Source: a virus
DNA: 64,000 nt
Direction: 5' to 3' (one strand)
Virus record (IMG/VR): IMGVR_UViG_3300033074_002003
Shown here: positions 48,287 through 63,630 of the stretch, piece by piece
Layout of the letters: each line of letters opens with the position of its first letter
Position numbering within the stretch: position 1 is the first letter of the stretch
Made by a program: the position numbers and the translations under genes
Notes under the pieces: model-generated
What the model was told of the DNA's origin: nothing
The model's input: only the letters and a program-made list of their open reading frames with translations
Databases searched by the model: none

Positions 48287-51200
48287 GGCACATGAAAATC
48301 TGTCACATCGCAGACATCCACATCCGTTCGATCAGCAGGCACGATGAGTACCGAACTGTGTTTCAGAGTCTCATCGACGACCTGAAAAAAGATCCCGTTG
48401 ACGTTATCTTTGTCGGGGGCGATGTCTGGCACACGAAAACAGCTGGGCTCACACCTGAGTACATCGACTTCATGCGGTGGTGGCTGACAGAGCTCGCGAA
48501 TTGTGCCGAGCTGTTTGTTACTCTTGGAAATCACGACGGAAATCTCGTCAACACTGACAGGCAGGATGCAGTGTCGCCGATCGTCGCCGCCCTCGCAAAC
48601 CCGCGCGTGAAGCTGTACAAGAAGAGCGGTGTATATGAGTTCAAGAAGGGCTGGAACTTCTGCGTCTACTCGCTATTCGATCGCGAGGGGTGGAAGAATG
48701 TATCACCCGAGAAGGGGAAGATCAACATCGCGTGCTATCACGGCGGTGTCAGGTCTTCTCTGACCGAGACGGGTTGGCCAATCGAAGAGGGCCCGTCTGT
48801 CGACTTCTTCGACGGGTATGACCTTGTCCTCCTCGGTGACATCCATCGCCAGCAGTTTCTCGGCAGCCCGAAGAACGGACAGCCGTGGATCGCGTACCCC
48901 GGAACGCCAGTCTGTCAGAACTACGCAGAGGGCTACCAGAAGCACGGGTACCTAAAATGGGTGCTGAATGATGACGGTGTCGTAAGCTCTGTTGATTTCG
49001 TCGAGCTGAAGCAACCGAACCCGTTCGTGACAGTCGACTGGGAGGGCGATCGAGAGAAGTTCGTCAAAGATATCGAGGAGCTTCCGGAGGCAGCGAGGTT
49101 CCGTGTCAAGAGCTCTGTGTTCGTATCACAGGATGACATGGGTGTCATCTCTGCGACACTGAAGAAGAAGAAATCGGCGATCGAAGTCGTCTTGAAGTCT
49201 GAGGTGACACACAAGAAGGACGTGTTCTCGGCGGGCGGCCTTGAGATGATGCGCGATGACTTGCGCAATGTCGAGGTCCTGACACTTCTCTTGAAGGATT
49301 TCTATCGCGGTATCTCTATCAGCAATTCTGAGTGGGATGACGTCACGAAACTCGTTGAGAAGTACTTGCGATCGGCTTCGAGTGACGACGAGTCACCGCG
49401 ACACGTCAAGTGGAGAATCGGCGAATTCTCGTTCGAGAACCTGTACTCTTACGGGCTCGGCAACAAGATCAACTTTGAGAAGCTGTCTGGTATCGTCGGA
49501 ATTTTCGGACCTAACAGGTCTGGGAAGTCATCGATCGTCGGGACGATGATGTATGGTCTCTTCAACACGACAGATCGCGGGGCGGTCAAAAACCTTCAGA
49601 TCGTAAATGACAGGAAGTCCTCCGGCGAGGCGAAGATCGCACTTCAGGTGGGTGAAGCGAAGTACGTGCTGACGCGTGAGACAAACAAAACAGACACGAA
49701 GAAGGGCATCACAGTCGCGGCCACTTCACTCGATCTGAGGCGTATCGCCGCTGACGGCTCTCTTGTGAACATGAACGGTGAGCAGAGAAATGACACCGAG
49801 AAGACGATCAGGAAGTTGATCGGTACACAGGACGATTTCCTGCTCACGTCAATGTCAACACAGGGTGATCTGAACAAGTTCATCAACGAGGGCTCTGCCT
49901 TCAGGAAACTGATTCTCACGAAGTTCCTCGACCTCGACATCTTTGAGAAGATGCACGAAGCAGCCAAAGCAGAGCTCAAAGCGGCGACAGCGATATCAAA
50001 GACGATCCCAAAGCGTGATTGGCCAGCAGAGCTAAAGAAGATCGACACAAAGCTGTCTAATTTTGATGACTTCGCAGAGAAGATCGAGACAAAGCTGTCT
50101 GAGCTTCGGGCATCGCTGCATACCGCACAGGTGAAGCTCGCGCTGTATAAAAACACCTCAACTGTGTCAGAGGACGAAATTTCTGCCGCAGTAGCTCTTC
50201 TAGAGTCGTACGTTGCTTCTTCTGAAGCGCTCGAAGTGCAGCTCAAGAAGCTTCGCCTCTCGCTGGAAAATGGTCACGATGCCCACGCTCGCGTCCTATC
50301 CCTTCTCGAGAACTACGACGCAGAACAGCTACGAATTGAGCGTGATAACGGCGTAGCACTAAAATCTGCGGCAAAGACGCTTGAGGCACAGCTCACTCGC
50401 GCGAAAGAGGATGTCGAGAGGTTGAAGAGGTCCGCAAAGAAGCTAAGTGTCGTCCCATGCGAAGACAAGTTTCCCACGTGCATGTTCATCAAAGACTCTC
50501 ACGTCGATAGGGGAGAACTACCCGCCGCAGAACAGAATGTCGCCGAACTAGAAAAATCTCTCGAGAGCACAAATTCGGCATTTTCTGACTGGCAGAAGCT
50601 CGATACGGAGAAGAAGTTCGCAGAGCACGCTCGCCTCCTGACAGAAGAGAGGTCACTCGCAAACGCTATCTCGGCGTCAGAGGTGTCGGTCACAAAGACA
50701 GAGAGCCAACTTAGTATTGCGAACGCGAAGCGCGGAGCACAGAAGATCAAGGTCGATGAGCTCGTCGAGGCTGCGGCTCGTGCGGAGAGTGTCGAGGCAC
50801 TTACTCTCCAGAGAGAGTGCGACTCGATCAACGAAGACATCAAGCGTTACGACAAAATGAAAGTCGATGCCGCCACCAGTCGCGGCAAATTTGAGACTGA
50901 GGCGAAGCAGCTGAAGTCACAGCAGTCACAGTACGAAAAAGTTCAGCATGACATTCACGTGACGGAGCTGATCTCAGAGGCTTTCTCGAAGCGCGGAATT
51001 CCCACGAAAATCATCAATTCGCAGCTGCCGGCGATAAACGCTACTGTCGCTGAAATTCTCCATGGCGTTGTGGATTACACGATTGAGTTCGTTGCGGACG
51101 AGGACTCGAACGCCCTTGACGTGATCTTGAACTACGGCGATTCAAAGAGGGTTATCGAGCTCGGATCTGGCATGGAGAAACTATTTGCGTCACTTGCAAT

Positions 51201-51438
51201 CAGGGTGGCACTTCACACGATCACCTCGCTCCCAAAGACCGACATGTTTGTCATTGACGAAGGATTTGGCTCTCTGGACGACCTCAATGTGGAGCCCTGT
51301 AATCGCCTCTTGAGATCGCTGAAGAGGTACTTCGGAACGGTGATTGTCATCACACACGTGGGTGGTATCAAGGATTCTGCCGACACGATCATTGAGATCG
51401 CTCGAGACGGAAAAGACTCGAAGGTGGTCGCAGAATGA
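48283..51438 (+). CDS. single-polypeptide fusion of Mre11/SbcD-like nuclease (T4 gp47-like) and Rad50/SbcC-like ABC ATPase (T4 gp46-like)
   Basis: N-terminal phosphoesterase motifs ICHIADIHI, FVGGDVWH, TLGNHD; Walker A FGPNRSGKSS at ~aa 410; long coiled coil with CEDKFPTC hook-like motif; signature GSGMEK; Walker B MFVIDEGFGSLD; H-loop IVITHV. Confidence 0.75.
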   Translation: MRHMKICHIADIHIRSISRHDEYRTVFQSLIDDLKKDPVDVIFVGGDVWHTKTAGLTPEYIDFMRWWLTELANCAELFVTLGNHDGNLVNTDRQDAVSPIVAALANPRVKLYKKSGVYEFKKGWNFCVYSLFDREGWKNVSPEKGKINIACYHGGVRSSLTETGWPIEEGPSVDFFDGYDLVLLGDIHRQQFLGSPKNGQPWIAYPGTPVCQNYAEGYQKHGYLKWVLNDDGVVSSVDFVELKQPNPFVTVDWEGDREKFVKDIEELPEAARFRVKSSVFVSQDDMGVISATLKKKKSAIEVVLKSEVTHKKDVFSAGGLEMMRDDLRNVEVLTLLLKDFYRGISISNSEWDDVTKLVEKYLRSASSDDESPRHVKWRIGEFSFENLYSYGLGNKINFEKLSGIVGIFGPNRSGKSSIVGTMMYGLFNTTDRGAVKNLQIVNDRKSSGEAKIALQVGEAKYVLTRETNKTDTKKGITVAATSLDLRRIAADGSLVNMNGEQRNDTEKTIRKLIGTQDDFLLTSMSTQGDLNKFINEGSAFRKLILTKFLDLDIFEKMHEAAKAELKAATAISKTIPKRDWPAELKKIDTKLSNFDDFAEKIETKLSELRASLHTAQVKLALYKNTSTVSEDEISAAVALLESYVASSEALEVQLKKLRLSLENGHDAHARVLSLLENYDAEQLRIERDNGVALKSAAKTLEAQLTRAKEDVERLKRSAKKLSVVPCEDKFPTCMFIKDSHVDRGELPAAEQNVAELEKSLESTNSAFSDWQKLDTEKKFAEHARLLTEERSLANAISASEVSVTKTESQLSIANAKRGAQKIKVDELVEAAARAESVEALTLQRECDSINEDIKRYDKMKVDAATSRGKFETEAKQLKSQQSQYEKVQHDIHVTELISEAFSKRGIPTKIINSQLPAINATVAEILHGVVDYTIEFVADEDSNALDVILNYGDSKRVIELGSGMEKLFASLAIRVALHTITSLPKTDMFVIDEGFGSLDDLNVEPCNRLLRSLKRYFGTVIVITHVGGIKDSADTIIEIARDGKDSKVVAE

Positions 51439-51746: not shown

Positions 51747-52139
51747 ATGGAACTCGAAAATGGCCTTGATGTAGATGCTTTGGGACAGGCGACGGACAAC
51801 ACGTTCGGGCGGTCGTCTACAACGGCGTGTGCGACAAACTCTGTAAAAATCAGGCTAGTCGGCGACGGTCTGCTGCAGGTAGATTACCTGTCTTCTGTCA
51901 CGTATGCGTCAGATGCGATGATGCGCGACGTGATGAAGAAGTACGGTGATGAGTCTGATTCTGCGATCAATTCTGCGATGAAGACGGTGAAAGCAGAGTA
52001 CCGCAGGATCTGCGACAAGCAGCTGAAAGCAAAAGCTGTAGGCAATCCCGACTCGTCGATCGAGGCTGTGAACATGTCGTCTCACAGTCCCATCAAGCGT
52101 GGTTTCTACCGGAAGCGCTGTGTGTTTGAGGTGAAGTGA
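51747..52139 (+). CDS. 16: terminase small subunit (T4 gp16-like)
   Basis: Sits immediately upstream of, and ATGA-coupled to, terminase large; N-terminus MELENGLDVDALGQ resembles T4 gp16 MEGLDINKLLDISDL. Confidence 0.5.
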   Translation: MELENGLDVDALGQATDNTFGRSSTTACATNSVKIRLVGDGLLQVDYLSSVTYASDAMMRDVMKKYGDESDSAINSAMKTVKAEYRRICDKQLKAKAVGNPDSSIEAVNMSSHSPIKRGFYRKRCVFEVK

Positions 52140-53806
52140 TGACTGCTCCCAAAGCAGCGGTCTCTACCAAAGAGATCATGCGAAAAGAGCTCATCGCGTG
52201 TGCCGAGAGCCCAGAGTACTTCCTGAAGACATACGCAAAAATCGTTCACCCTACAAGGGGGCGAATTCCATTTAAGACCTACGCATTTCAGGATGACTGT
52301 CTGAAGTCGTTCATGGATCACCGCTTCAATATCGTCCTGAAGTCGCGCCAGCTCGGTCTCTCGACCGTGACAGCGGGATTTGCCACGTGGTACGCTATGT
52401 TCGCGCGCGACAAGACAGTTCTTGTTATCGCGACGAAGCTAGACGTCGCGATGAACTTCATCAAGAAGGTGAAGACGATCCTCTCAAATCTCCCACCATG
52501 GTTCGGCAGCGTCGTCTCTATCAAAGGCGAGACAAAAAAGTCGATCGAGCTTGCGAATGGCTCTACGATCACCGCTATCCCGACTTCCGAAGACGCCGGT
52601 CGTTCAGAAGCGCTGTCACTCCTGATCGTAGATGAGGCGGCAATCATCAAGGACTTCGAAGAGGTATGGACAGGCCTCTATCCGACGATCTCAACGGGAG
52701 GTCGCGCCATCCTGCTCTCTACGCCGAAGGGCGCGATGGGACAGTTCTACGAAATCTGGCAGCAGGCGATAAACGGCGAGAACGATTTCAATGCCACAAA
52801 GTTGATGTGGTACGTGCACCCAGAGCACGACGAAGAGTGGTTCAAAAAAGAGACTCGGGGCTTCTCACCGCGTAAAATCAGCCAGGAATTTTTGTGCGAC
52901 TTCAACGCGTCCGGCGATACTTTCATCACAGTCGATGACATGGAATGGTTGCGCTCGCAAGTCCAAGCGTGTGTGGATCGCTGGGGAGATGACGGGAACG
53001 TGTGGGTGTGGGAGAAGCCGCAGTACGGTGAGAAGTATTGCCTGTCGGGCGACGTGTCTCGAGGCAATGCGGAGGACTTTTCTACATTCCACGTTTTCAA
53101 GATGTCTACAAATGAGCTCGTCGCTGAGTACAAGGGTAAGTTGCCTCCTGATGAATTCGGCATGCTCATCAACGACATCGGCAAGAGGTACAATACCGCG
53201 CTAGTGTGTCCAGAGAACAACACGTTCGGATACTCTACGATCAGAGCACTGAAGACCGCGGGATACAAGAACCTCTACTACGAGGGTAGGCGACCAGGCT
53301 ACGTTCCGTATGACGAGAAAGAGATGGCGGGATTCTCGACGCAGAAAAATACGCGTGAGAAGATTCTAACCAACCTAGAGAGAGCCATCAGAAACAAGAC
53401 GATCAAGCTTCGCTCTGAGAGGTTGTACCTAGAGCTGAAGACATTCGTATGGATTGGCCAACGTGCCCGGGCACAGGACGGAAATCACGATGACCTCGTG
53501 ATGAGTGCAGCCATCGGTGCTTACCTTCTGGATCCGAACGGTGGGGCTGTTGACAATGGTGATGCTGCTGGCTTGCTCGGTGCAATGTCCGTGTCGTCTC
53601 GCGACGCGGGTGAGATTTCTGGCATGGGCAGGGATATCACCGCGCTTACGAATCCCAACATGATGGTCGCTGCAACGAACCGGGTCGCGATGCGACCCAT
53701 CATGGGATCTGAGACGATCGGAGTACAGGAGCAGCTGCGCAACATGGGATTTGGGGCGCGAGATCAGAGCCTTAGCGATTTTTCGTGGGTGCTCAAGGGA
53801 CGCTGA
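52136..53806 (+). CDS. 17: terminase large subunit (T4 gp17-like ATPase/nuclease)
   Basis: KSRQLGLSTVTAGF ~ gp17 SRQLGKTTVVAIF; ELANGSTITA ~ ELDNGSSIGA; LLIVDEAAII Walker B; HDDLVMSAAIGAYL ~ gp17 HDDLVMSLVIFGWL. Confidence 0.9.
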   Translation: MMTAPKAAVSTKEIMRKELIACAESPEYFLKTYAKIVHPTRGRIPFKTYAFQDDCLKSFMDHRFNIVLKSRQLGLSTVTAGFATWYAMFARDKTVLVIATKLDVAMNFIKKVKTILSNLPPWFGSVVSIKGETKKSIELANGSTITAIPTSEDAGRSEALSLLIVDEAAIIKDFEEVWTGLYPTISTGGRAILLSTPKGAMGQFYEIWQQAINGENDFNATKLMWYVHPEHDEEWFKKETRGFSPRKISQEFLCDFNASGDTFITVDDMEWLRSQVQACVDRWGDDGNVWVWEKPQYGEKYCLSGDVSRGNAEDFSTFHVFKMSTNELVAEYKGKLPPDEFGMLINDIGKRYNTALVCPENNTFGYSTIRALKTAGYKNLYYEGRRPGYVPYDEKEMAGFSTQKNTREKILTNLERAIRNKTIKLRSERLYLELKTFVWIGQRARAQDGNHDDLVMSAAIGAYLLDPNGGAVDNGDAAGLLGAMSVSSRDAGEISGMGRDITALTNPNMMVAATNRVAMRPIMGSETIGVQEQLRNMGFGARDQSLSDFSWVLKGR

Positions 53807-53831: not shown

Positions 53832-54260
53832 ATGACAAAGATTGTCAATGTAGACGAAAAATTGCTCCGCAAGATCATCCGTGAGGAACTTGAAGCAGAG
53901 CCGCCAAAGAACACACTGAACCACGAAGAGGCAGTATCGATTGTCTCAGCAGCTAGCAAGCTTCTGGGTGCGGTCGAGGCATTCGAAGAAAAAGCACCGC
54001 AATCCGCAAAAGACCTGATGGCAAGCAGAGTACCAGACCTACGCAAAGCACTCGAAGACATGGTGACAAATCCCGGAGCTTACGTTTCAAGAGTCAACCC
54101 ACAGAACGTCAAAGTGTCAGACACAGCACAAAATATCGTAGATCCGAGTCCCGCCGTAACAGCATCACCAGCAGGCAAGAAACCAGTTCTCGATCACAAG
54201 ACAGCAACAGAGTCAATCAACAGGCGCCTGCGTCAGAACGCAAAGAACACCAAGACTTAA
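53832..54260 (+). CDS. hypothetical head-module protein with capsid-targeting-like N-terminus
   Basis: VDEKLLRKIIREELEAE motif is shared with 58390 and 59038 proteins. Confidence 0.35.
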   Translation: MTKIVNVDEKLLRKIIREELEAEPPKNTLNHEEAVSIVSAASKLLGAVEAFEEKAPQSAKDLMASRVPDLRKALEDMVTNPGAYVSRVNPQNVKVSDTAQNIVDPSPAVTASPAGKKPVLDHKTATESINRRLRQNAKNTKT

Positions 54261-54296
54261 CAACTTCGCAAATAGAGGGTACTTATCTTTCTGAAT

Positions 54297-54312
54297 GGTG
54301 ACGTTCGTCACC
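54297..54312 (+). terminator. short GC hairpin upstream of the portal gene (weak terminator or regulatory stem)
   Basis: GGTGACG tt CGTCACC followed by TTCAGACTTT. Confidence 0.3.
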
Positions 54313-54356
54313 TTCAGACTTTAAGGGCGGTGCGACAATGGCACGCTGGAGCGAAT

Positions 54357-56381
54357 ATGTCAACAAGGCAACGTGAGACTCTTTTTCGCAGGCTTACCAA
54401 ACTTTTCAAGTCTGGGCCCGTAGTAAAGAGAAAGGTAAAGCAGCAAGATACGAGGCAGGCGGGGCCCGATCCCGATAAGTCGTCAGCTGTTCTAACGTTC
54501 CAGAAGTCATATTCGCCCATCTACAACACGATCGTCAGTAATGCGTTCAACCTTTCAGAAAGGCTAGCGCGATACCAAGATTTCAACTCGATGGAAATGA
54601 CGCCGGAAATTTCCAAGGCGCTAGACCTCTACGCCGACGAAAGTGTGGCCCAAGACGATGTGGGACGTACACTTCACATCTACTCCGACAACCCGAAGGT
54701 GAAAGGTCTACTTGAGGAGCTCTTCTACGATACGCTGAACGTTGAATTCAACCTCAGACCGTGGGTGCGGAACCTGGTTAAATACGGCGACCTGTTCCTC
54801 TTTAACGACGTGCATCCCAGGTTTGGCCTGATCAACGTGATCCCGATCCCTGTGAATGAGCTCGAGCGCGAAGAGGGATTTGACAGGGAAGATCCAACAG
54901 CGGTCAGGTTTCGCTGGACGACGATGAACAACAACCTGCTCGAGAACTGGCAGGTGACACACATCAGGCTCATGAGCAATGACATGTTCTTGCCTTACGG
55001 TACGAGCATGATCGAGTCAGCAAGGAAGATCTGGCGACAGCTGATGCTCATCGAGGACGCGATGCTCGTATATCGCGTCGTCCGTGCACCCGAGCGTCGA
55101 GTCTTCTACATTGACGTCGGAAATACGCCAAATGATGAGGTGCCAAACCTCATGGAACAGGCGAGAATGAAACTTCGCACGTCACAGGTGATAGACCAGT
55201 CGACATCACGTGTAGATGTCAGATACAATCCCCTGAGCGTTGATGAGGATTATTTCATACCTCGGCGCGGAGCTGAGGGTGGAACAAAGATCGAGACGCT
55301 GGCGGGCGGGCAGAACACCGCTGCTGTCGAGGACGTTCAGTACATTCAGAGGAAGCTCTTCGCAGCACTGGGAATCCCAAAGGCGTACCTAGGCTACGAC
55401 GAGATGCTCTCCAGCAAGGCGACACTCGCTCAGGAGGACATTAGATTTTCGCGCACAGTGAACATGATCCAGCGCACTCTGATCTCAGAGCTCAACAAGA
55501 TGGCGATCATTCACCTTGCCGCGCACGGGTTTGACGGTGAAGACCTGCTGAACTTCCGACTTCACCTCTCAAATCCTTCTACAGTTGCTCAACAGCAGAA
55601 GCTTGAGCTCTACCGGACGAAGTTTGAGATTGCCGCTGCTGGACAGCAGGTCGAGAACCTCGTCGACATGCAGTTCCTCAGAAAGAAGATTTTGGGCCTC
55701 ACTGACGAAGAGATCGATGAGATCAAGTCTGGACAGCTTACTGACGCAGAGTTCCTTGCGGGTGTAGAAGCTGGCGGCGAGGGTGGTGGAGGCGGAGGTC
55801 TTGGTGGGGGAGGCGGCGGAGGTGGAGGCGGGGGTCCATTTGGCGATGAAGACGCTCCCGACGAAGAGGGTGCCGACACCGAAGATGAACCAGAGAAAGA
55901 AGAGGGTGACGATGTCGAACCGGGCGTCGAGCTCATCAGAAGCGGTGACGATGATAGTGGAAGCGGAAAACCGCTGAAAATCTCGATCGCCGACCCGTCA
56001 GCACCACTGAAGACAAAGGCTACCGTGTTGGGTGCGGCTCTTACGAAGAGGCGTCGCAAGAAGCACCATGGCAATGAGATCGAGCAGAGACCCGATTTCT
56101 TGAGGATGACGTCGATGAAGGGTCACAGAGACGACGATCCTTTCGATATGTCATGGATCAAGACATCCGCACGCAACCCACTGGGCGAGGGCCTCGCTCC
56201 GACCCTGAGCTGGAACCTCAGCTCAATGATCGATCGCATGGCGAAGAAGATCGGAATACGCCGCGGGTACACCGCGTCGCCAGTTCCTGCGAATATCCTC
56301 TCAGAGGGCGTTGAAGACGTTGAAATCGATATCAACATTGATGGCGAAGAACAAGACGATAGTTATGACGGAGACACCTGA
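54357..56381 (+). CDS. 20: portal vertex protein (T4 gp20-like) with a ~150-aa C-terminal poly-Gly/acidic extension
   Basis: LDLYADESVAQDD ~ gp20 VSEIVSDAIVYEDD; GGAG RBS 6 nt before ATG 54357; GGEGGGGGGLGGGGGGGGGGGPFGDEDAPDEEGADTEDEPEKEEGDD at aa ~473-520. Confidence 0.8.
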   Translation: MSTRQRETLFRRLTKLFKSGPVVKRKVKQQDTRQAGPDPDKSSAVLTFQKSYSPIYNTIVSNAFNLSERLARYQDFNSMEMTPEISKALDLYADESVAQDDVGRTLHIYSDNPKVKGLLEELFYDTLNVEFNLRPWVRNLVKYGDLFLFNDVHPRFGLINVIPIPVNELEREEGFDREDPTAVRFRWTTMNNNLLENWQVTHIRLMSNDMFLPYGTSMIESARKIWRQLMLIEDAMLVYRVVRAPERRVFYIDVGNTPNDEVPNLMEQARMKLRTSQVIDQSTSRVDVRYNPLSVDEDYFIPRRGAEGGTKIETLAGGQNTAAVEDVQYIQRKLFAALGIPKAYLGYDEMLSSKATLAQEDIRFSRTVNMIQRTLISELNKMAIIHLAAHGFDGEDLLNFRLHLSNPSTVAQQQKLELYRTKFEIAAAGQQVENLVDMQFLRKKILGLTDEEIDEIKSGQLTDAEFLAGVEAGGEGGGGGGLGGGGGGGGGGGPFGDEDAPDEEGADTEDEPEKEEGDDVEPGVELIRSGDDDSGSGKPLKISIADPSAPLKTKATVLGAALTKRRRKKHHGNEIEQRPDFLRMTSMKGHRDDDPFDMSWIKTSARNPLGEGLAPTLSWNLSSMIDRMAKKIGIRRGYTASPVPANILSEGVEDVEIDINIDGEEQDDSYDGDT

Positions 56382-56384
56382 GAC

Positions 56385-57248
56385 ATGAGCAGCAAAGCAC
56401 ACAACAAGCGTAGGAATGCGGGACTCCTGTACGAGTTTCTCTTCAGAGCCGCATCAACTGCGATCGTCGATGGCGATCACGAAAAGAGTGCAGCCGCCCT
56501 TGCGATCATCAAGAAGTATTTCAACAAGGACGGCGAGCTCTACAGAGAGTATCGGCTCTTCAATTCGTTGATGAAGGTCGAAGTGAAGTCTGAGGCCGTC
56601 GCGTCAACTATCCTTCGTGAGGCCGCGCTCGCGGCGAAATCTCTTCAGACAGAGGCCGTTCAGAAGAAGAAGACGGCACTGATCAACGAAATCAACAAGA
56701 CGTTCGATGATCCCACGTTCTGGGACGCGCCGATCGCTAACTACAAGATTTACGCTACGATCGGTACTCTGATCTCGGAGTGGTCAGAGCAGTCTGGCAA
56801 GGTAGACATTCAGAGGCTTGCGGAGCTCGAAGACAGGCTGGTATCTTGGCTCCGTGAGAACAAGTCAGCGGTGCAGGAAGCAGAGCCGACGAAGAGGGAC
56901 GGAACAGAGAGGCTTGCCCTCCGACTGGCACTCAGAAAATTCAACGAGAAATATGCCGGTACTCTACAGACAGAGCAAAAGGACATTATCAGGTTGTGGG
57001 CCCTGTCACACCAGAGCGGGAAAGCCGAACCTGTCACCAAGTTTCTCGCAGAGGTAAAATCGTCCACACTTGCAGCGATAGACGTTGCGGTAAAAGACCC
57101 CGAGCTGGCTCTTCTTCACGAGGGGATCAAGTCTACGCGTGAGAAGATCGAATCCGAAAAACTTGAAGAGGTGAATGACGAGACGGTCACTAGGTTTGTC
57201 CTCTATTCGCACCTCAAATCTGAGCTCACAAAGCGAGGGGACACATGA
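56385..57248 (+). CDS. putative prohead core / internal protein
   Basis: Between portal and prohead protease, ATGA coupled; helical K/E-rich composition. Confidence 0.35.
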   Translation: MSSKAHNKRRNAGLLYEFLFRAASTAIVDGDHEKSAAALAIIKKYFNKDGELYREYRLFNSLMKVEVKSEAVASTILREAALAAKSLQTEAVQKKKTALINEINKTFDDPTFWDAPIANYKIYATIGTLISEWSEQSGKVDIQRLAELEDRLVSWLRENKSAVQEAEPTKRDGTERLALRLALRKFNEKYAGTLQTEQKDIIRLWALSHQSGKAEPVTKFLAEVKSSTLAAIDVAVKDPELALLHEGIKSTREKIESEKLEEVNDETVTRFVLYSHLKSELTKRGDT

Positions 57249-57877
57249 AACTTCTTGAGACATTCGACGAATTTGAGTACAAGCTCATCACAGAGGCCGC
57301 GCCCGTACCTGTAGAAGTAGAGGACGAGAGTGGTAACAAGGTTTCGCTTCCTGGCAAGCCGAAACTCATGATGAAGGGCATCTTGCAGAAGGCCGATACG
57401 CTCAACCAGAACGGCAGGATCTACCCTAAGGCGATCCTAGAGCGCGAGATTCGCAACTACCAGAAGTTCATCAACGAGAACCGCGCTCTGGGGGAAATTG
57501 ATCACCCGGACTCTTCTGTTGTGGAGCTGAAGCGCGTCTCTCACATTATTCGCGAGGCACACATGGAGGGAAATACCGTCATCGGAACGGTGGAAATTCT
57601 CCCAACACCCTCGGGCAATATTCTACGAGATCTGGTCGAGGCGAAGGTGAAGCTCGGAATCTCGTCGCGCGGTGTCGGCTCTACGAAGAAAGACGGTGAC
57701 TACTACGTCGTTCAGGACGATTTCCAACTGATCTGCTGGGACTTCGTGTCCGAGCCGTCGACACCGGGAGCGTTCATGATGGCCGAGGGCAAGACGTTGA
57801 CTGACAGCGAACTGCGCAAGATCTTCAATAGGTCTGACAGGATTTCGCGAATCCTAAACGACATCCTGGACAAGTGA
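57245..57877 (+). CDS. 21: prohead core protease (T4 gp21-like)
   Basis: Position between portal and scaffold; collinear resemblance to gp21-family proteases (GEIDHPDSS..SSRGVGS). Confidence 0.65.
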   Translation: MKLLETFDEFEYKLITEAAPVPVEVEDESGNKVSLPGKPKLMMKGILQKADTLNQNGRIYPKAILEREIRNYQKFINENRALGEIDHPDSSVVELKRVSHIIREAHMEGNTVIGTVEILPTPSGNILRDLVEAKVKLGISSRGVGSTKKDGDYYVVQDDFQLICWDFVSEPSTPGAFMMAEGKTLTDSELRKIFNRSDRISRILNDILDK

Positions 57878-57901
57878 TCGCGAGCGGTGTAATGTACAGG
57901 G

Positions 57902-58393
57902 ATGAATATCGTAAAATTCCCTAACACAGCGCTTCGCGTCCCATGTGTCGATGTCTCGCGCGAAGATGATATCTCTGATCTCATAAAAGAGATGATTGAT
58001 ACGATGTATGCGAACAACGGCGTCGGTCTTGCGGCACCGCAGGTAAATGTGCACAAAGCGCTGTTTGTGATGGATTGGACGGGCGGAGACAGGAATGACA
58101 CTCTGACTGTCGTCATCAACCCCGTGATCATCTCACACTCTGGAGACGACCAACAAGTCTCACCAGAAGGGTGTCTCTCGATCCCTGGTGTATTTGCGAA
58201 TGTCAACCGGCGGTCTTCTATTGTGGCTACGTGGTTCAACGAAAAAAGAGAACCCATCACAAAAGAACTATCGGGCCCCGAAGCGGCGATTTTTCAGCAC
58301 GAACTTGACCACCTCGGTGGTATTGTATTCACAGACAGGTTGTCTCAGTTTGCGAAGAAGCTCGCATTCAAAGGGTATGGAAATCAGTCATGA
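57902..58393 (+). CDS. def: peptide deformylase
   Basis: Three PDF motifs GVGLAAPQV, EGCLSIPG and QHELDHLGG. Confidence 0.9.
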   Translation: MNIVKFPNTALRVPCVDVSREDDISDLIKEMIDTMYANNGVGLAAPQVNVHKALFVMDWTGGDRNDTLTVVINPVIISHSGDDQQVSPEGCLSIPGVFANVNRRSSIVATWFNEKREPITKELSGPEAAIFQHELDHLGGIVFTDRLSQFAKKLAFKGYGNQS

Positions 58394-58956
58394 AGATAAA
58401 CAGGAATGATCTGAAGGCGATTGTCAAGGAGTGTCTCCTTGAGATCATGGTAGAGGGCCTCGGTGCGCGGGTCGAAGAGAAGATCGAAGAGAGCTACGCT
58501 GCACAACCTCGACAGGTTCAGAGACAGGTTCAGCAGCCTCGCGAGCGCCGGCCACTCACCACACCTTTCACACCCGCACCCTCTGGTCGGCCTCGTGCCG
58601 CAGCCGCTCGTCAGTCGGCCGCAGTGAGCGTCTTTGCGGGACAGTCTGTCGGTGCCGTATCTCTCACAGAGATCCTGAAAGACACAGAGACAAATACGTT
58701 GCCACAGATGGCAGCGGCGCCCGATCCAGAAGCGATGATGGGAAGGGCACAAATGATGTATGAGGGGCCTTCATACGACGAAGACGGTCCGTTGCCGCAA
58801 CCCACGGCCGATGATCCGTACCCGGGTCTCACAAACATGTCGGAGGAACAGAAGGCGTCCGTGTGGGACAGACTCATCACGGCACCAACGCGCATCGTTC
58901 ACCCGCCTGCACCCGCCTCGATTCCAAGGGAAGTGTTGGATGCGAAAGTGGGTTGA
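58390..58956 (+). CDS. hypothetical head-module protein (putative internal/core protein) with Q/P-rich middle
   Basis: N-terminal NRNDLKAIVKECLLEIMVEGL amphipathic motif; ATGA coupled to def. Confidence 0.35.
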   Translation: MKINRNDLKAIVKECLLEIMVEGLGARVEEKIEESYAAQPRQVQRQVQQPRERRPLTTPFTPAPSGRPRAAAARQSAAVSVFAGQSVGAVSLTEILKDTETNTLPQMAAAPDPEAMMGRAQMMYEGPSYDEDGPLPQPTADDPYPGLTNMSEEQKASVWDRLITAPTRIVHPPAPASIPREVLDAKVG

Positions 58957-59037
58957 TCTGTCAGCACACTGCGATCGAAGCGATACTTATCTGACGTCTC
59001 CGGTCGACATCGCCCGGACTATAACATGAGGGAATCC

Positions 59038-59316
59038 ATGAAAACTGTCAAGCTTGATGCGCGTCTCCTGAAGAAGCTTGTCCTCGAAGAGGTCGAGAAG
59101 ATGAAGCTTGAGGAAGCTGACGCACTTGAGACCGTCGAGTCTCGTGGGGATGATGCCGAAGAGCTGGATGATGCCGGCGATTACGCAGACACGCTTGAGA
59201 AGAAGATCGACTTCTACAAGGCGAATAAGGTGAAGGAGCAGAGGATTCTGCGCAACCTGAAGACGCTTCGTGAGACCCAGTCGCGTCTCAAGTCTGAAAT
59301 TGCGAAGAAGCTCTAA
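59038..59316 (+). CDS. small acidic coiled-coil head-module protein (putative prohead core protein)
   Basis: MKTVKLDARLLKKLVLEEVEKMKLEE; GAGGGA RBS upstream of ATG 59038. Confidence 0.4.
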   Translation: MKTVKLDARLLKKLVLEEVEKMKLEEADALETVESRGDDAEELDDAGDYADTLEKKIDFYKANKVKEQRILRNLKTLRETQSRLKSEIAKKL

Positions 59317-59357: not shown

Positions 59358-59855
59358 ATGCCTGGTCAGGGAAAATACACACAGTTTGATCCGATTCCCA
59401 GCAAAGATCCTGCTGTGGGCAAGGCTACGGCCAACGTCTCCCGTCTCCGCGGCGCGTTCAAGACGTCGCCACTGAAGAACGACGGCACGAATCGCACCGA
59501 AGCAAACAAGCGCGGTGAGGCTTTTCTCACCCCTCCATCAGTTGATGACGGTGGCTATATGTTCGGTGTCGTGGACCTCGATTACAAGAAGGCACCCGAT
59601 TTCAAGGACGTAAAGACTGGTGGCGCTGGCCTTCCTTCGACAGCTTGGTCACCGAACGTGAACTCTCCGGGTGAGGGAAATGGCGCTGATCCCAAGAAGA
59701 TCGATGCGATGGATCCGAAAGACGTTCCCGTTGCCAACACGTCGCTTGATCCCGCAGGTGATGACCTCATGAATCCTATCGAGGCATCGAAGCAGGTGTC
59801 TGCTGTGAAGCTCGGTGATGCGCTTGTCCCGGGCCGTCGTCCTGGTGCTGTCTGA
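59358..59855 (+). CDS. hypothetical G/P/D-rich head-module protein
   Basis: ORF with RBS AGGGAG. Confidence 0.35.
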   Translation: MPGQGKYTQFDPIPSKDPAVGKATANVSRLRGAFKTSPLKNDGTNRTEANKRGEAFLTPPSVDDGGYMFGVVDLDYKKAPDFKDVKTGGAGLPSTAWSPNVNSPGEGNGADPKKIDAMDPKDVPVANTSLDPAGDDLMNPIEASKQVSAVKLGDALVPGRRPGAV

Positions 59856-59905: not shown

Positions 59906-61681
59906 ATGTCAAAATCTATGATCGAAGAGGCACTGATTGATGCGCAGAAGCTCAAGGAGCTTGCTGTTGAGAATGCGCGTCGCGATATCATAGAGAAGAT
60001 TACGCCTCGAATCAAAGAACTCGTCGAGTCTCGCATGATGGAGGACTCGTCTGCGGAAGATTCTGGCGGTACTTCGGAACTAGACGAGGATGACGAGGTC
60101 ACTACTGAATCAGGTGACTACGAGATGAGCAGCGAGTCGCTGAAGACGATGGCTCCGATTCTGCGCGCCGCAGGCGACCAGAACAGCAAGCTTGAACTCA
60201 GCGTTGCCAACCTGGGGGAATCTGTGCAGCGTGCACTTCGCGTCTCTGACACAAAGAGACAAGAGTCCGAATTTATTTCGGGGATCTCGCAGTTGTTTTC
60301 GACAATTCAGGATATCTATTCACACGTGCACGAGTCAAGGACTCTGACAACCACCCGCAAAGCTGCGCTGGAACAGAAACTCGAATCGCACTTTGCTGAA
60401 CTGAACGAGGGATTCAAGGAGATTTCGATGAAGAAGCTGAGCTTGAGAGAGGCCGATGAGATGCTTGACGCGGGTGCTCCTGATGCCGGAGCTGCTCCTG
60501 CGCCGGGTGCAGAGGACGCGCAAGAGGGTCCCGAGGGTGAAGACGTAGTCATCACGCTCAAGGGTCTCAATGGCGTCGATGCCGAGTCTCTCAATGTTGA
60601 GGTTGAGGTCGAGTCTCCTGATGAGGAAGAGGGCGAAGAGGGCGGTGCAGACCTCCCGGCAGCTCCTGACGCTGATGGCGGTGGAGACGATGTGTTTGGT
60701 GAGGGTGAGGAACTCTCCGGTGACACAATCCTCGAAATTTCGGACGTAGAACTGAAGAAGGAGATCGCTCGCATGCGTAGGTTGTCTGAGGGCGACGAAG
60801 ATGTCGGTAAGAGGGTTCCCGCAACAGGCAAGCCCAAGCACCCTGTCGAGGACTTCGGCGGTGGTTCGGATGACGGCGATCCGTGGCTCGATCACGATGT
60901 GACTGTCGGAATGGCACACCTCGCGGGCAAGCCGGGCAAGAAGCTCAAGGAGTCTGACGAGGACATGGAAGAGTCGCTCGAAGTCGAGGGTGACGAGGAC
61001 ATGACAGAGGCCGAGGATATGGACGAGTCAGATGACTGCGATGAGTCGCAGGAGTTTGGCGGCGTCGCCGAGGCAGCGAAGAAGAGTGTCGTTGCCCGTC
61101 AGCTGAAGGCCGAGAAGGCCCGTCAGCTCGAGTCGCAGAAGAAGATTGCAGCGTACAAGACAGAGGCACGCAAGTGCCGCGGAACAGTACGCGAGACGCA
61201 CCTGAAGAAGCGTGCGGCAGCAGAGTTCAATCGCATCAAGGAGTCTCAGGCGAAGGTCGCGAAGCTCTCGGGTGCACTGAAGAAGGGAGCGTCTAACAGT
61301 GGCGCTTCGAACAAGCTCGTCAAGGAAAATGCCGAGCTACGCAACAGCCTTGATGAGCAGAAGCTCTTCAGCGCAAAACTTCTCTATGCCAATAAGCTCT
61401 TGCAGACCGAGGGTGTCAAGATCACCGCAGACATGCGCGACAAGATCTACGATTACCTTGACTCGGCGGAGAGCCTGAGAGAAGCGAAGGAACTGTACGT
61501 GAAGCTGTCCAAGAAGCTCACGAGCTCGGTGAACGAGTCTGTACGGTCTGCAAAGGCCGGACTCATCGCCGGATCGTCTTCGAGGTCAGGACGTACCGCG
61601 GGCACGACTCTCAATGAGTCGGCAGATGCAGAGAGCGTCGAACTGGATCGCTGGGCGACACTCGCGGGCATCAAGTCTTGA
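59906..61681 (+). CDS. 22: prohead scaffolding protein (gp22-like, unusually long and acidic)
   Basis: Immediately upstream of the major capsid gene; coiled-coil plus poly-acidic runs (DEEEGEEGG, EEDMDESDDCDE). Confidence 0.55.
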   Translation: MSKSMIEEALIDAQKLKELAVENARRDIIEKITPRIKELVESRMMEDSSAEDSGGTSELDEDDEVTTESGDYEMSSESLKTMAPILRAAGDQNSKLELSVANLGESVQRALRVSDTKRQESEFISGISQLFSTIQDIYSHVHESRTLTTTRKAALEQKLESHFAELNEGFKEISMKKLSLREADEMLDAGAPDAGAAPAPGAEDAQEGPEGEDVVITLKGLNGVDAESLNVEVEVESPDEEEGEEGGADLPAAPDADGGGDDVFGEGEELSGDTILEISDVELKKEIARMRRLSEGDEDVGKRVPATGKPKHPVEDFGGGSDDGDPWLDHDVTVGMAHLAGKPGKKLKESDEDMEESLEVEGDEDMTEAEDMDESDDCDESQEFGGVAEAAKKSVVARQLKAEKARQLESQKKIAAYKTEARKCRGTVRETHLKKRAAAEFNRIKESQAKVAKLSGALKKGASNSGASNKLVKENAELRNSLDEQKLFSAKLLYANKLLQTEGVKITADMRDKIYDYLDSAESLREAKELYVKLSKKLTSSVNESVRSAKAGLIAGSSSRSGRTAGTTLNESADAESVELDRWATLAGIKS

Positions 61682-61722: not shown

Positions 61723-63630
61723 ATGAAGAAGTTTTCACTCGAGCAGCTCTCGGAAGGTATCCGAGACCGCAATCTCTCAGCTGATGGCAAGCGTCTAGTT
61801 GAGAAGTGGAGCCGCACAGGACTCCTCAGGGGCCTCGATGGCGTGAAGCGCGACAACATGGCGCGTCTCCTCGAGAACCAGGCAGCGCAGCTCCTCAAGG
61901 AGACGAACGCAATCAGCACTGGTGCTGGTGGCCTCACGTCTTCGGGACAGATCCAGGGTTTCGCGAACATCGCGTTCCCAATGGTTCGCAGGGTTTTCGG
62001 TGGCCTCGTTGCCAACGAGCTCGTGTCGATCCAGCCGATGTCGCTCCCGTCGGGCCTCATCTTCTACGTCGACTACACCTACGGTAACAACGTCGGTGGT
62101 GACTCTGGCGTGGCACTGAGCTCGGGCGCAACGACCCCGACATATCAGCGCGGACAGTCGATCTACAACAACCCGGTGGGCCGCGGCATTCAGTCCGGTT
62201 CTCTCGCGGCTGGTGGTATGTACGACCTCGTCGGTGACGGTTACTCCAAGGTTCACCTCAACAGCACGACCCTCTCCGGATCGAACGTCTGGACGGGCGC
62301 GTGGACGACCGGTCCTTCCGAGTCGTGGACCGCTTCGGGTACAGTCGGTGCAGCAACTGACTTCACGGGCACAAACGCGGTGAACGCGCAGTTCGACCCA
62401 CAGGTCGAGGCTGACCTCGCCTCCAACACGCTCGACTTCACGTTCGTTCACATCCCGGTCTCTGACTTCAGGACCGCGATCCCGAACGGCGACCTCACGG
62501 CCCTCGACCAGATCAACCTCTACGGTGTCTCGATCACCCAGGGCGCGACGGCATGGGGTTCTTCGTACCAGGCAGGTGCAGGCGTCCTGAACCTTCGCAG
62601 GCTCACGCGCCGCGGTAACTTCTCCGCGACAGCGAAGACGTTCACCGTCGATCCGTTCAACGGAACGCACATCCAGTTCGTGGTTCGCCTCACCAACGGT
62701 GGAACGGCTCCGAACGTCGGTCTTGCAAACTCCGTGTCAATGGCAACAGCTGACGCAGTGAGGAACGCAGACCTCGGCACGCCGGGCACCGTCCTGACGA
62801 TTCCGTCGTTCGAGTCTGACTTCGGCGCGACACCTTCTCCGGCAATCCCAGAGATTGACATCAAGGTGGAGTCGATCGCCGTGACAGCGACCACGCGCAA
62901 GCTGCGCGCAAAGTGGACCCCTGAGCTTGCTCAGGACCTCAATGCGTACCAGTCGCTGGACGCAGAGGTTGAGCTCACGCAGATCCTCTCGGAGCAGATT
63001 GCTCTCGAGATTGACCGCGAGATCCTTCAGGACCTCCTGATGCAGGCAAACGGCGCATCGCTCTTCTGGAGCCGCGCACCTGGCAAGTTCGTGAACAAGA
63101 TCACCGGCTCGCCGGTTTCCCTTGCGAACAGCCTCTCGATCGGTCCGGCATTCACCGGCACCGTGCGCGACTGGTACGAGACGCTCATTGAGACGATCAT
63201 TGACGTGTCGAATACCATTCACCGCAAGACGCTCCGCGGCTCGGCGAACTTCATCGTGGTGTCTCCGGACGTCGCGACGATCCTCGAGGCAAGCGTTGCC
63301 TACAGGCCGAAGGTTTCGATCGACGGCGACGGGCAGGTCTCTGCGACCTTCTCGATCGGTGCGGAGGCTGTTGGCACGCTCAACAACCGCTTCACCGTGT
63401 ACAAGGACCCGTACTTCCCACGCAACAAGATCCTTGTTGGGTTCAAGGGCGGCGGATTCCTCGAGACCGGGTATGTGTACGCTCCGTACGTACCGCTCAT
63501 CGTCACCCCGACGCTCTTTGCGCCGGAGGACTTCACTCCACGTAAGGGCGTGATGACCCGCTACGGCAAGAAAATGGTCCGCTCGGACTTCTACGGCGTG
63601 GTCACGGTTCTCGACATGAATATCATTTAG
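61723..63630 (+). CDS. 23: major capsid protein (T4 gp23-like)
   Basis: AFPMVRRVFGGLVANELVSIQPMSLPSGLIFYVDY ~ gp23 P(I/M)IRRVFP.LIANEIVSVQPM..P.GL.FY signature. Confidence 0.85.
   Translation: MKKFSLEQLSEGIRDRNLSADGKRLVEKWSRTGLLRGLDGVKRDNMARLLENQAAQLLKETNAISTGAGGLTSSGQIQGFANIAFPMVRRVFGGLVANELVSIQPMSLPSGLIFYVDYTYGNNVGGDSGVALSSGATTPTYQRGQSIYNNPVGRGIQSGSLAAGGMYDLVGDGYSKVHLNSTTLSGSNVWTGAWTTGPSESWTASGTVGAATDFTGTNAVNAQFDPQVEADLASNTLDFTFVHIPVSDFRTAIPNGDLTALDQINLYGVSITQGATAWGSSYQAGAGVLNLRRLTRRGNFSATAKTFTVDPFNGTHIQFVVRLTNGGTAPNVGLANSVSMATADAVRNADLGTPGTVLTIPSFESDFGATPSPAIPEIDIKVESIAVTATTRKLRAKWTPELAQDLNAYQSLDAEVELTQILSEQIALEIDREILQDLLMQANGASLFWSRAPGKFVNKITGSPVSLANSLSIGPAFTGTVRDWYETLIETIIDVSNTIHRKTLRGSANFIVVSPDVATILEASVAYRPKVSIDGDGQVSATFSIGAEAVGTLNNRFTVYKDPYFPRNKILVGFKGGGFLETGYVYAPYVPLIVTPTLFAPEDFTPRKGVMTRYGKKMVRSDFYGVVTVLDMNII

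What the first reader, a model, noticed from the sequence alone, without database searches (positions are those of the whole stretch)
53832..59316. Repeated capsid-targeting-like N-terminal motif in three small head-module proteins
Three proteins start with similar amphipathic helices rich in L/K/E that end in LEE/ELE. They begin at 53832 (VDEKLLRKIIREELEAE), 58390 (NRNDLKAIVKECLLEIMVEGL) and 59038 (LDARLLKKLVLEEVEKMKLEE). This is the pattern of T4 capsid-targeting sequences, which are cleaved after Glu by the gp21 protease. The proteins are probably packaged internal or core proteins that may be injected with the DNA, which would make them anti-defence cargo candidates.
Basis: inference. Interest (0 to 1): 0.5.

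Follow-up and report, generated by a model that had tools for sequence, protein, structure and literature searches.

The report
Shared head-targeting leader on phage proteins
Three small proteins in the T4-type head-gene cluster of an uncultured jumbo phage start with the same ~20-residue leader, which tags many unrelated small proteins in related uncultured phages and is probably a cleavable tag that loads proteins into the capsid.

Summary
P1 (53832-54260), P2 (58390-58956) and P3 (59038-59316) carry a related motif 7-11 residues from their start, and it occurs nowhere else in the six frames of the window. P1 and P2 are the two best window hits of a profile built only from other phages. P3 is borderline.

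The motif is one copy of a clade-wide leader: M-K-[IL]-T-x-x-[KQ]-L-[RK]-x-I-I-[RK]-E-E-[IL]-x-x-[LI]-x-E, often followed by A or G. It heads more than 120 small proteins with mostly unrelated bodies. These are mostly encoded in or near head modules of the same type (gp20-like portal, S77 gp21-like protease, scaffold, gp23-like capsid protein), in arrays of up to about 10 genes. One 484-kb phage has about 25.

The leader often ends in the T4 protease site L/I-x-E. The capsid protein keeps that site at the position where T4 gp23 is cut. So a capsid-targeting, cleavable leader is the best reading, inferred and not shown.

The leader has no sequence similarity to the T4 capsid-targeting sequence. 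P1, P2 and P3 are conserved, syntenic head-module genes, so they are more likely prohead-core proteins than anti-defence cargo. I found no Pfam or PHROG family and no paper describing the leader.

The parts
53832..54260 (+). P1, 142 aa, between large terminase and portal. The leader is aa 1-23 (53832-53900) and the core LRKIIREEL is at 53865-53891.
   Evidence: ORF. Orthologs keep I..(..)LR.IIREE, then a variable linker, then a conserved body. Independent leader profile: E 7.6e-4. AF2: helix 9-22, low-confidence linker 23-26, helical body 31-88. Family of 188 representative clusters.
58390..58956 (+). P2, 188 aa, after the protease and deformylase genes. The leader is aa 1-22 (58390-58455) and the core LKAIVKECL is at 58411-58437. 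Candidate sites are L-L-E18 and M-V-E22 followed by G.
   Evidence: ORF. Independent leader profile: E 3.5e-4, the best hit in the window. P2-type genes (LKxIVKECLVEILxEG) follow the protease in 37 of 80 unbiased loci. L8, K9, K13, E18 and E22 are invariant in alignment A5.
59038..59316 (+). P3, 92 aa (96 aa if started at 59026). The leader is aa 1-26 (59038-59115) and the core LKKLVLEEV is at 59068-59094. It has an acidic middle and a basic C-terminal helix.
   Evidence: ORF. Start choice. Reciprocal best hit with P1 at E about 0.05. Only 5.9 bits against the independent profile. Orthologs carry KLTPxxLKRIIEEE.
57245..57877 (+). Prohead protease, S77 (T4 gp21) family. It is the enzyme proposed to remove the leaders.
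   Evidence: Pfam PF03420 at 7.5e-28. PHROG 207 at 1.7e-51. H87 and the S140-S141-R-G motif are invariant in the alignment with T4 gp21.
59906..61681 (+). Acidic 591-aa scaffold-like protein (position and character of T4 gp22), the proposed docking partner of the leaders.
   Evidence: Position between the small proteins and the capsid protein, and composition. Its N-terminus is conserved in L002, Mel-JY01, immuto and LR756508 and resembles the T4 gp22 N-terminus by eye. No Pfam or PHROG hit.
61723..63630 (+). gp23-like major capsid protein. The predicted maturation cut is after L-K-E60 (codon 61900-61902).
   Evidence: Pfam PF07068 at 4.1e-76. E60 is invariant and aligns with E65 of T4 gp23 in LTE-AEIGG, which the T4 literature gives as the end of the 65-residue propeptide (PMC5694885). 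The residue two before it is always L, I or V.
54330..56381 (+). gp20-like portal protein (public gene calls start it 9 codons later).
   Evidence: Pfam PF07230 at 2.9e-72. Gene calls.
56385..57248 (+). Conserved 287-aa head-module protein without a leader. It is a marker of this type of module.
   Evidence: Homologs between portal and protease in L002, Mel-JY01, immuto, LR756508 and 20 loci recovered by the motif scan.
59358..59855 (+). Conserved 165-aa head-module protein without a leader (80% identical in L002).

Best explanation
The three N-termini are copies of a clade-wide N-terminal leader of about 20 residues. Its consensus is M-K-[IL]-T-[KE]-[ST]-[KQ]-L-[RK]-x-I-[IV]-[RK]-E-E-[IL]-x-x-[LI]-x-E, often followed by A or G. 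The proposed mechanism has three steps:
1. The leader helix docks the newly made protein onto the scaffolding core while the prohead assembles. This is inferred.
2. The gp21-type S77 protease encoded in the same module then cuts after a Glu of an [LIV]-x-E site at or near the end of the leader. This releases the body inside the shell, or starts its degradation. This is inferred.
3. This matches how T4 handles its internal proteins, Alt, gp24, gp67 and gp68 (established for T4: PMC9026906, PMC5694885).

In this window the tagged proteins P1, P2 and P3 are conserved, syntenic members of the head module. They are most likely prohead-core or internal structural proteins rather than variable injected effectors.

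What is shown: the leader exists, is protein-level conserved, is N-terminal, is tied to this type of head module, and is attached to unrelated bodies. What is inferred: targeting and cleavage.
For: 1. Module identity: portal PF07230, protease PF03420 and capsid PF07068. The protease keeps the His and Ser-Ser-Arg-Gly motifs shared with T4 gp21.

2. Protease specificity is probably conserved. The capsid protein has an invariant [LIV]-x-E at the position of the T4 gp23 cleavage site.

3. The leader is real and N-terminal. A degenerate DNA pattern for K-L-R-x-I-I-R-E-E-h found 97 stretches in IMG/VR. Of the 104 matches, 89 have an in-frame ATG at most 12 codons upstream.

4. Link to the head module:
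- 23 of those 97 short loci also hold portal, 287-aa homolog, protease, scaffold or capsid genes.
- In an unbiased set of 80 protease-centred loci (1.0 Mb) the core occurs 84 times on the protease strand and 5 times on the other strand. 75 of the 84 lie within 13 residues of a Met, and 54 of 80 loci have at least one.
- All 80 N-terminal leader genes found with a slightly wider pattern lie upstream of the portal, between the 287-aa gene and the protease, or after the protease, before the scaffold gene where the locus reaches it.

5. Cleavage-type site at positions that were not used for selection. [LI]-x-E with its E at +13 or +14 from the core start is present in 51 of 122 leaders, against 1.2% per position downstream. 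63 of 122 have such a site within +9 to +16, against 2-12 of about 120 in control windows. The next residue is A or G in 29 of 63. In the P1 family, 74 of 85 members have [LIVM]-x-E just before the conserved body motif V-D-H.

6. Bodies are unrelated. 125 bodies fall into 95 BLAST clusters, and 0 of 162 within-array pairs are related.

7. Selection acts on the protein. Synonymous codons differ (42-69% identical codons for identical residues) and the upstream DNA is not conserved.

8. The AF2 model of P1 has a separate N-terminal helix (residues 9-22), then a low-confidence linker, then the body.

9. In P1, P2 and P3 the [LIV]-x-E sites cluster in the first 35 residues: 2 of 2, 4 of 5 and 3 of 5.
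Against: - There is no experimental evidence of packaging or cleavage for any member. The phages are uncultured, and I found no proteome paper for the cultured relatives immuto and Mel-JY01.
- The window's own P1 lacks the canonical terminal L-x-E. It has E-A-E where the family has L-x-E, and only I-R-E18 inside the core fits.
- P3 matches the independent leader profile only weakly.
- [LIV]-x-E is a short motif in Glu- and Leu-rich helices. Its conservation could be structural rather than a cleavage site.
- 74 of the 97 motif-scan loci show no head gene in the short DNA held, and one lies on a contig labelled as a giant-virus MAG. In LR756508 about 16 of 25 leader genes lie outside the portal-to-capsid interval. 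The link to the head module is therefore strong but not exclusive.
- The leader set from the DNA scan is biased towards the canonical core.
Confidence: 0.55

Rival explanations
1. The shared N-terminus is an assembly or oligomerisation helix of prohead-core, scaffold-accessory or portal-associated proteins. It is not a removable targeting tag. It stays on the protein, or the whole protein is degraded, and the [LIV]-x-E pattern is only a feature of the helix.
For: P1, P2 and P3 are conserved structural-module genes. The E and L positions are conserved like structural residues. The window's P1 lacks the terminal L-x-E. The L-L-x-x-I-I-x-x-x-L spacing is coiled-coil-like (read from the sequence).
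Against: The same leader is attached to about 95 unrelated body types, with up to about 10 different ones side by side in one array. That is hard to explain by a common structural role of the bodies. The L-x-E followed by A or G recurs at a fixed distance from the core irrespective of the body. AF2 separates the leader from the body by a flexible linker.
Confidence: 0.25
2. One reading: P1, P2 and P3 are packaged internal proteins that are injected with the DNA and act against host defences, like T4 IPI.
For: The leader logic is the same as for the T4 internal proteins (PMC9026906). Related phages carry variable arrays of leader-tagged small proteins. The P1 body is mildly basic (pI 8.3 after the putative cut).
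Against: The three genes are syntenic and conserved across many related head modules, at rates like scaffold and the 287-aa protein. The T4 internal proteins, by contrast, are a highly diverse set that share only the capsid-targeting sequence (PMC3012670). The bodies of P2 and P3 are acidic (pI about 5.1). P2 is largely low-complexity, and P2 and P3 lie between protease and scaffold like core proteins. Their bodies match no Pfam or PHROG family; anti-defence libraries were not searched.
Confidence: 0.1
3. Chance resemblance of K/E/L-rich N-terminal helices, or a DNA-level feature such as a recent duplication, gene conversion or a shared translation-initiation region.
For: The pairwise similarity inside the window is only borderline (E 0.05-0.07, and P2 is not found by P1 or P3). 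The regex was derived from the three sequences themselves.
Against: An independent profile picks P2 and P1 as the top 2 of 891 segments. There are many N-terminal copies in related modules and a strong strand and position bias. Codons differ at synonymous sites and the upstream DNA is unrelated.
Confidence: 0.03

Closest known systems
T4 capsid-targeting sequence (CTS) of internal proteins IPI, IPII and IPIII and of Alt (Mullaney and Black 1996, as reviewed in PMC9026906 and PMC5694885)
   Same: A short N-terminal propeptide shared by proteins with unrelated mature parts. The phage has a gp21-type S77 protease. In T4 the leader ends in an L/I-x-E site, and the same site type recurs at the end of this leader. 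The T4 propeptides are 10-19 residues, in the same range as this leader of about 20.
   Different: No sequence similarity (T4 MKTYQEFIAE scores -2.1 bits against the leader profile). The leader is about twice the length of the 10-residue IPIII sequence. The tagged genes here lie mostly inside or next to the head module. In this window they are conserved core genes rather than a variable locus. Nothing has been tested experimentally.
T4 prohead core proteins gp67 and gp68
   Same: Small proteins encoded next to portal, protease and scaffold. They carry L/I-x-E sequences close to the N-terminus (LIE in gp67, IPE and VLE in gp68). They are part of the prohead core and are cut by gp21 (PMC9026906).
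   Different: No detectable homology. hhalign probability is below 1% for P2 against gp68 and P3 against gp67, and there is no Pfam hit. The gene order differs: in T4 these genes lie between portal and protease, here P2 and P3 lie after the protease.
Conserved N-terminal propeptides of giant phiKZ-like phages (SPN3US gp53 and gp54 share MANFVKSKLARESVE; cleavage at A/S-x-E; PMC5694885)
   Same: Diverged head proteins keep an identical or near-identical N-terminus that contains protease sites. This has been interpreted as a CTS-like role in a jumbo phage.
   Different: A different phage lineage and protease specificity (S/A-x-E). The propeptides are mostly more than 100 residues. The proteins are paralogs, not unrelated bodies.
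Encapsulin cargo-loading peptides (from general knowledge, not tested here)
   Same: A short peptide tag that loads diverse cargo into an HK97-fold shell.
   Different: Those tags are usually C-terminal, bind the shell protein directly and are not removed. There is no sequence relation.

Membership tests
T4-type capsid-targeting propeptide (CTS) | Located at the extreme N-terminus, about 10-20 residues | tested here: met
   The core starts 7-11 residues after the Met in P1, P2 and P3. 89 of 104 scan matches lie within 12 codons of an ATG.
T4-type capsid-targeting propeptide (CTS) | Shared by proteins whose mature parts are unrelated | tested here: met
   The bodies of P1, P2 and P3 share no BLAST similarity. 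125 bodies fall into 95 clusters, and 0 of 162 within-array pairs are related.
T4-type capsid-targeting propeptide (CTS) | The phage encodes a gp21-type (S77) prohead protease with its catalytic residues | tested here: met
   PF03420 at 7.5e-28. H87 and S140/S141 align with T4 gp21.
T4-type capsid-targeting propeptide (CTS) | The leader ends in the protease site L/I-x-E | tested here: inconclusive
   Met at family level. Met for P2 (L-L-E18; its orthologs have L-x-E22 followed by G) and for P3 (L-E-E18, L-E-E26). The window's P1 has only I-R-E18 and lacks the terminal L-x-E of its family.
T4-type capsid-targeting propeptide (CTS) | Sequence similarity to the T4 CTS (MKTYQEFIAE) | tested here: not met
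   The T4 IPIII N-terminus scores -2.1 bits against the leader profile.
T4-type capsid-targeting propeptide (CTS) | The leader is sufficient for packaging and is removed in the prohead | not testable with these tools
   Needs virion mass spectrometry, N-terminal sequencing or fusion experiments.
T4 gp67 / gp68 prohead core proteins | Sequence or profile homology | tested here: not met
   hhalign probability 0.4% (P2 family against gp68) and 0.3% (P3 family against gp67). No Pfam or PHROG family.
T4 gp67 / gp68 prohead core proteins | Small proteins encoded beside portal, protease and scaffold | tested here: met
   Gene order in the window and in relatives.
Leader family defined here (MK[IL]T..[KQ]L[RK].II[RK]EE[IL]..[LI].E) | Significant match to a profile built from independent members | tested here: met
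   P2 at E 3.5e-4 and P1 at E 7.6e-4 among 891 segments. P3 is only borderline at 5.9 bits, E 0.5.
Leader family defined here (MK[IL]T..[KQ]L[RK].II[RK]EE[IL]..[LI].E) | Encoded in a head module with gp20-like portal, 287-aa protein, S77 protease, scaffold and gp23-like capsid protein | tested here: met

The most novel reading that the evidence does not exclude
The leader is a general cargo-loading tag of a large, almost wholly uncultured clade of T4-type phages, many of them jumbo or huge. On this reading, any protein that starts with it is packed into the capsid and, after the leader is cut off, many are injected with the DNA. The arrays of unrelated tagged genes would then be a readable catalogue of early-acting effector and anti-defence proteins. 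These arrays hold up to about 10 genes in a row, and one 484-kb genome has about 25. The roughly 20-residue tag could also be used to load foreign proteins into such capsids.
Probability: 0.3. Interest if true: 0.8.

Novelty: new variant of a known kind. Interest (0 to 1): 0.6.

Why it matters
Capsid-targeting leaders have been shown experimentally essentially only in T4, with related inferences for phiKZ-like phages. Here a different and longer leader appears to do the same job in a large environmental clade of T4-type phages.

It can be recognised from sequence alone. That would allow the packaged proteome of uncultured jumbo phages, and possibly their injected proteins, to be predicted from metagenomes. 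It would also point to dozens of small proteins of unknown function as candidate host-takeover or anti-defence factors, and offer a new tag for loading proteins into capsids.

For this window specifically, it assigns a likely role (prohead-core or internal head proteins processed by the S77 protease) to three genes that have no database annotation.

Tried and rejected
- Close relatives of the portal in IMG/VR by single-protein search: none.
- Megablast of the head module against GenBank phages: no match.
- tblastn of P1 and P2 against GenBank phages at E up to 1: no match.
- tblastn of a 22-aa consensus leader: only one chance-level hit.
- Pfam and PHROGs on P1, P2, P3 and 10 other leader proteins: nothing above threshold. 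The only hit was PHROG 36942 at E 0.009 for P2.
- Word-indexed homolog search for P2: only the identical protein.
- hhalign of P2 against gp68 and P3 against gp67: no homology.
- Literature search for six leader peptide strings: 0 papers.
- Literature search for capsid-targeting sequences in uncultured, T4-like or cyano phages: nothing relevant beyond the T4 and SPN3US papers.
- No paper found on immuto or Mel-JY01 virion proteomes.
- XacN1 and RM378 head modules: no canonical leader.
- The scaffold N-terminus looked leader-like by eye, but it scores -5 bits against the leader profile and is a separate conserved feature.
- DNA-level repeat or shared regulatory region: rejected.
- Fold search of the P1 model: not run, because mean pLDDT is only 66.8.
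- Hydrophobic-moment test: not significant for P2 and P3.

Full report
**Setting**

The region is the head-gene cluster of an uncultured phage of about 52-58% GC. All genes listed below are on the + strand.

| Coordinates | Product | Evidence |
|---|---|---|
| 52136-53806 | large terminase | PF03237 |
| 53832-54260 | P1 | no family |
| 54330-56381 | gp20-like portal | PF07230, 2.9e-72 |
| 56385-57248 | conserved 287-aa protein | no family |
| 57245-57877 | S77 gp21-like prohead protease | PF03420, 7.5e-28 |
| 57902-58393 | peptide deformylase | PF01327 |
| 58390-58956 | P2 | no family |
| 59038-59316 | P3 | no family |
| 59358-59855 | conserved 165-aa protein | no family |
| 59906-61681 | acidic 591-aa scaffold-like protein | no family |
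| 61723-63630 | gp23-like major capsid protein | PF07068, 4.1e-76 |

There is no nucleotide match in GenBank phages. The capsid protein is at most 51% identical, and only over part of its length, to those of Microcystis phage Mel-JY01, Flavobacterium phage immuto and two metagenomic huge phages. A protein identical to P2 lies on public contigs of up to 329 kb, so this is probably a jumbo phage.

A relaxed core pattern occurs only at these three N-termini in all six frames, but that pattern was derived from them.

Three less circular tests were run:
- phmmer with each 30-residue N-terminus against all 891 six-frame segments of at least 40 aa makes P1 and P3 reciprocal best non-self hits at E 0.05-0.07. 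P2 is not recovered.
- A profile built from 114 leaders of other phages, excluding the window and its close relatives, ranks P2 (E 3.5e-4) and P1 (E 7.6e-4) first and second of the 891 segments.
- P3 is only borderline against that profile (5.9 bits). Its orthologs in closer relatives carry a more canonical KLTPxxLKRIIEEE.

Orthologs in a syntenic relative (L002) and in the databases keep the N-terminal motif while the following linker varies. I conclude that the shared motif is real for P1 and P2 and probable for P3.

'Amphipathic' is weakly supported, for P1 only.

**What it is**

While reading the head region of the huge metagenomic phage LR756508, I saw that many consecutive small genes begin MK.(T)E.KLR.IIREE..

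A degenerate DNA pattern for K-L-R-x-I-I-R-E-E-h then found 97 stretches in IMG/VR. Of the 104 matches, 89 have an in-frame ATG at most 12 codons upstream. This gives the consensus M-K-[IL]-T-[KE]-[ST]-[KQ]-L-[RK]-x-I-I-R-E-E-[IL].

Using local profiles of the window-type head proteins, 23 of these 97 short loci also contain portal, 287-aa homolog, protease, scaffold or capsid genes. The tagged genes there sit just upstream of the portal (like P1), between the 287-aa gene and the protease, or between protease and scaffold (like P2 and P3).

Arrays are common. L026 has 10 tagged genes after the protease plus one before it, L057 has 10 and L040 has 8.

A sample that is unbiased with respect to the motif gave the same picture. 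I took 80 IMG/VR loci centred on proteases 46-79% identical to the window's, 1.0 Mb in total:
- The core occurs 84 times on the protease strand and 5 times on the other strand.
- 75 of the 84 lie within 13 residues of a Met.
- 54 of 80 loci have at least one tagged gene.
- P2-type genes (LKxIVKECLVEILxEG) lie directly after the protease in 37 loci, and P3-type genes follow them.

The P1 family has 188 representative clusters at E up to 1e-3 in a full HMMER scan of 1.84 billion proteins. Most members are about 100 aa and match from residue 1.

In the complete 484-kb LR756508 genome, a profile that excludes its own leaders finds 27 hits at E up to 0.1, all on one strand. 25 of them are N-terminal: 9 around the portal-to-capsid region (145-163 kb), 8 at 187-195 kb, 5 at 218-221 kb and 3 elsewhere.

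**Properties that bear on mechanism**

1. The bodies are unrelated. 125 bodies fall into 95 BLAST clusters with 81 singletons, and 0 of 162 within-array pairs are related.
2. Conservation is at the protein level. Identical residues use identical codons only 42-69% of the time, and the upstream DNA is not conserved.
3. Downstream of the core, at positions that were not part of the search pattern, [LI]-x-E is strongly enriched.
   - Its Glu is at +13 or +14 in 51 of 122 leaders, against 1.2% per position further down.
   - 63 of 122 have a site within +9 to +16, against 2-12 of about 120 in control windows.
   - The next residue is A or G in 29 of 63.
4. In the P1 family, 74 of 85 anchored members have [LIVM]-x-E just before the conserved body motif V-D-H. 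The Glu is at -3 in 61 of 85.
5. L/I-x-E followed by cleavage is the known specificity of T4 gp21, and T4's capsid-targeting propeptides are 10-19 residues ending in such a site (PMC9026906, PMC5694885).
6. The window's protease keeps the His and Ser-Ser-Arg-Gly motifs shared with gp21.
7. The capsid protein has an invariant [LIV]-x-E (L-K-E60 in the window) aligned with the L-T-E65 site of T4 gp23. The protease specificity is therefore probably conserved.
8. The AF2 model of P1 (mean pLDDT 66.8) has the leader as a separate helix (residues 9-22), then a low-confidence linker (23-26), then a helical body.
9. In P1, P2 and P3 the [LIV]-x-E sites are concentrated in the first 35 residues.

**Most likely mechanism**

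The leader is the functional counterpart of T4's capsid-targeting sequence. It would dock the protein to the scaffolding core during prohead assembly and then be removed by the S77 protease at [LIV]-x-E. Both steps are inferred, and my confidence is about 0.55.

P1, P2 and P3 themselves are conserved and syntenic. Against L002 they are 51%, 32% and 46% identical, compared with scaffold 55%, the 287-aa protein 56% and protease 77%. The bodies of P2 and P3 are acidic.

I therefore read them as prohead-core or internal structural proteins in the role of T4 gp67/gp68, not as variable injected anti-defence cargo. The variable arrays in relatives are the better cargo candidates.

**Caveats**

- The window's P1 has E-A-E where its family has L-x-E, so only I-R-E18 fits the protease site.
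- P3 is a weak match to the canonical leader.
- The motif-scan set is biased towards the canonical core.
- 74 of 97 scan loci show no head gene within the short DNA held, and one is on a contig labelled as a giant-virus MAG.
- About 16 of the 25 leader genes of LR756508 lie outside the portal-to-capsid interval.
- Nothing has been tested experimentally.

**Comparison with what is known**

It works like the T4 capsid-targeting sequence but is not a sequence relative of it (-2.1 bits).

P2 and P3 are not detectable homologs of gp68 and gp67.

The conserved N-termini of SPN3US gp53 and gp54 are a looser parallel (PMC5694885).

No Pfam or PHROG family covers any of the 13 leader proteins tested. 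GenBank phages give no hit for P1 or P2. Searches for six leader peptide strings and for the concept in T4-like or uncultured phages found nothing.

I rate it a new variant of a known kind.

**Verdict**

The wider finding is a sequence-recognisable head-targeting tag that heads more than 120 mostly unrelated small proteins in the related uncultured phages sampled here. It is moderately to highly interesting and directly testable.

Noticed in passing
window 57902-58393 (+): A peptide deformylase gene (PF01327, 5.8e-45) sits inside the head module between the protease and P2. L002 has one at the same place, and L106 has an ORF there that looks like a deformylase by eye. At a comparable place Mel-JY01 has an annotated ribosomal protein S21 gene and LR756508 an S21-like ORF by eye, and XacN1 has a peptidyl-tRNA hydrolase. 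So translation-related genes recur inside these head modules. Whether N-terminal deformylation matters for the leader is unknown.
   Followed up: partly
L008 35392-46384 and L007 559-3762 (LR756508 145-164 kb); also LR756508 187-195 kb and 218-221 kb: A huge 484-kb metagenomic phage has 25 N-terminal leader-tagged small genes on one strand, in three clusters. The four bodies compared within each of L007 and L008 are unrelated. This is the largest set seen.
   Followed up: yes
L006 8460-8681 (immuto), L005 7422-7958 (Mel-JY01), L008 43399-43911, L165 301, L167 8882: A sub-family between the 287-aa gene and the protease has the leader followed directly by a conserved T-G-A-V-A-G-Y-x-T-P-x-A-F motif. 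Because it occurs in cultured phages (immuto, Mel-JY01), it is the easiest member to test by proteomics.
   Followed up: partly
window 59906-59990 (+); L004 4118 (T4 gene 22): The scaffold N-terminus (MSKSMIEEALIDAQKLKELAVENARR) is conserved in L002, Mel-JY01, immuto and LR756508. By eye it resembles the T4 gp22 N-terminus MLKEQLIAEAQKI, whose LIAE-AQ matches the L/I-x-E cleavage motif. The window has L-I-D at that spot.
   Followed up: no
window 54330-56381 (+), about 55760-55960: The portal has a run of about 20 Gly followed by an acidic stretch in its C-terminal part. Related portals carry one or two inteins with HNH domains (L002, L190, LR756508), and a related terminase carries a Hint domain (L001). 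The window's copies are intein-free.
   Followed up: no
window 48283-51438 (+): A single 1051-aa protein combines a Metallophos (Mre11-like) N-terminus with SMC_N/AAA_23 (Rad50-like) domains. This looks like a fusion of the T4 gp47 and gp46 functions (Pfam marks on the near-identical gene in L188).
   Followed up: no
window 29917-30492 (+) and 29672-29917 (+): A ClpP-family protease (PF00574, 7.1e-37) lies far from the head module. The 81-aa ORF just upstream has a weak, non-N-terminal leader-like stretch (NLKCREIVREIV, E 0.14), which is probably chance.
   Followed up: partly
L188 15344-16138 (just beyond the window's 3' end): A TnsA-like endonuclease gene (PF08722) directly follows the capsid gene in near-identical contigs and varies in length between assemblies. 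Similar genes lie upstream of the recombination nuclease in L001 and L003.
   Followed up: no
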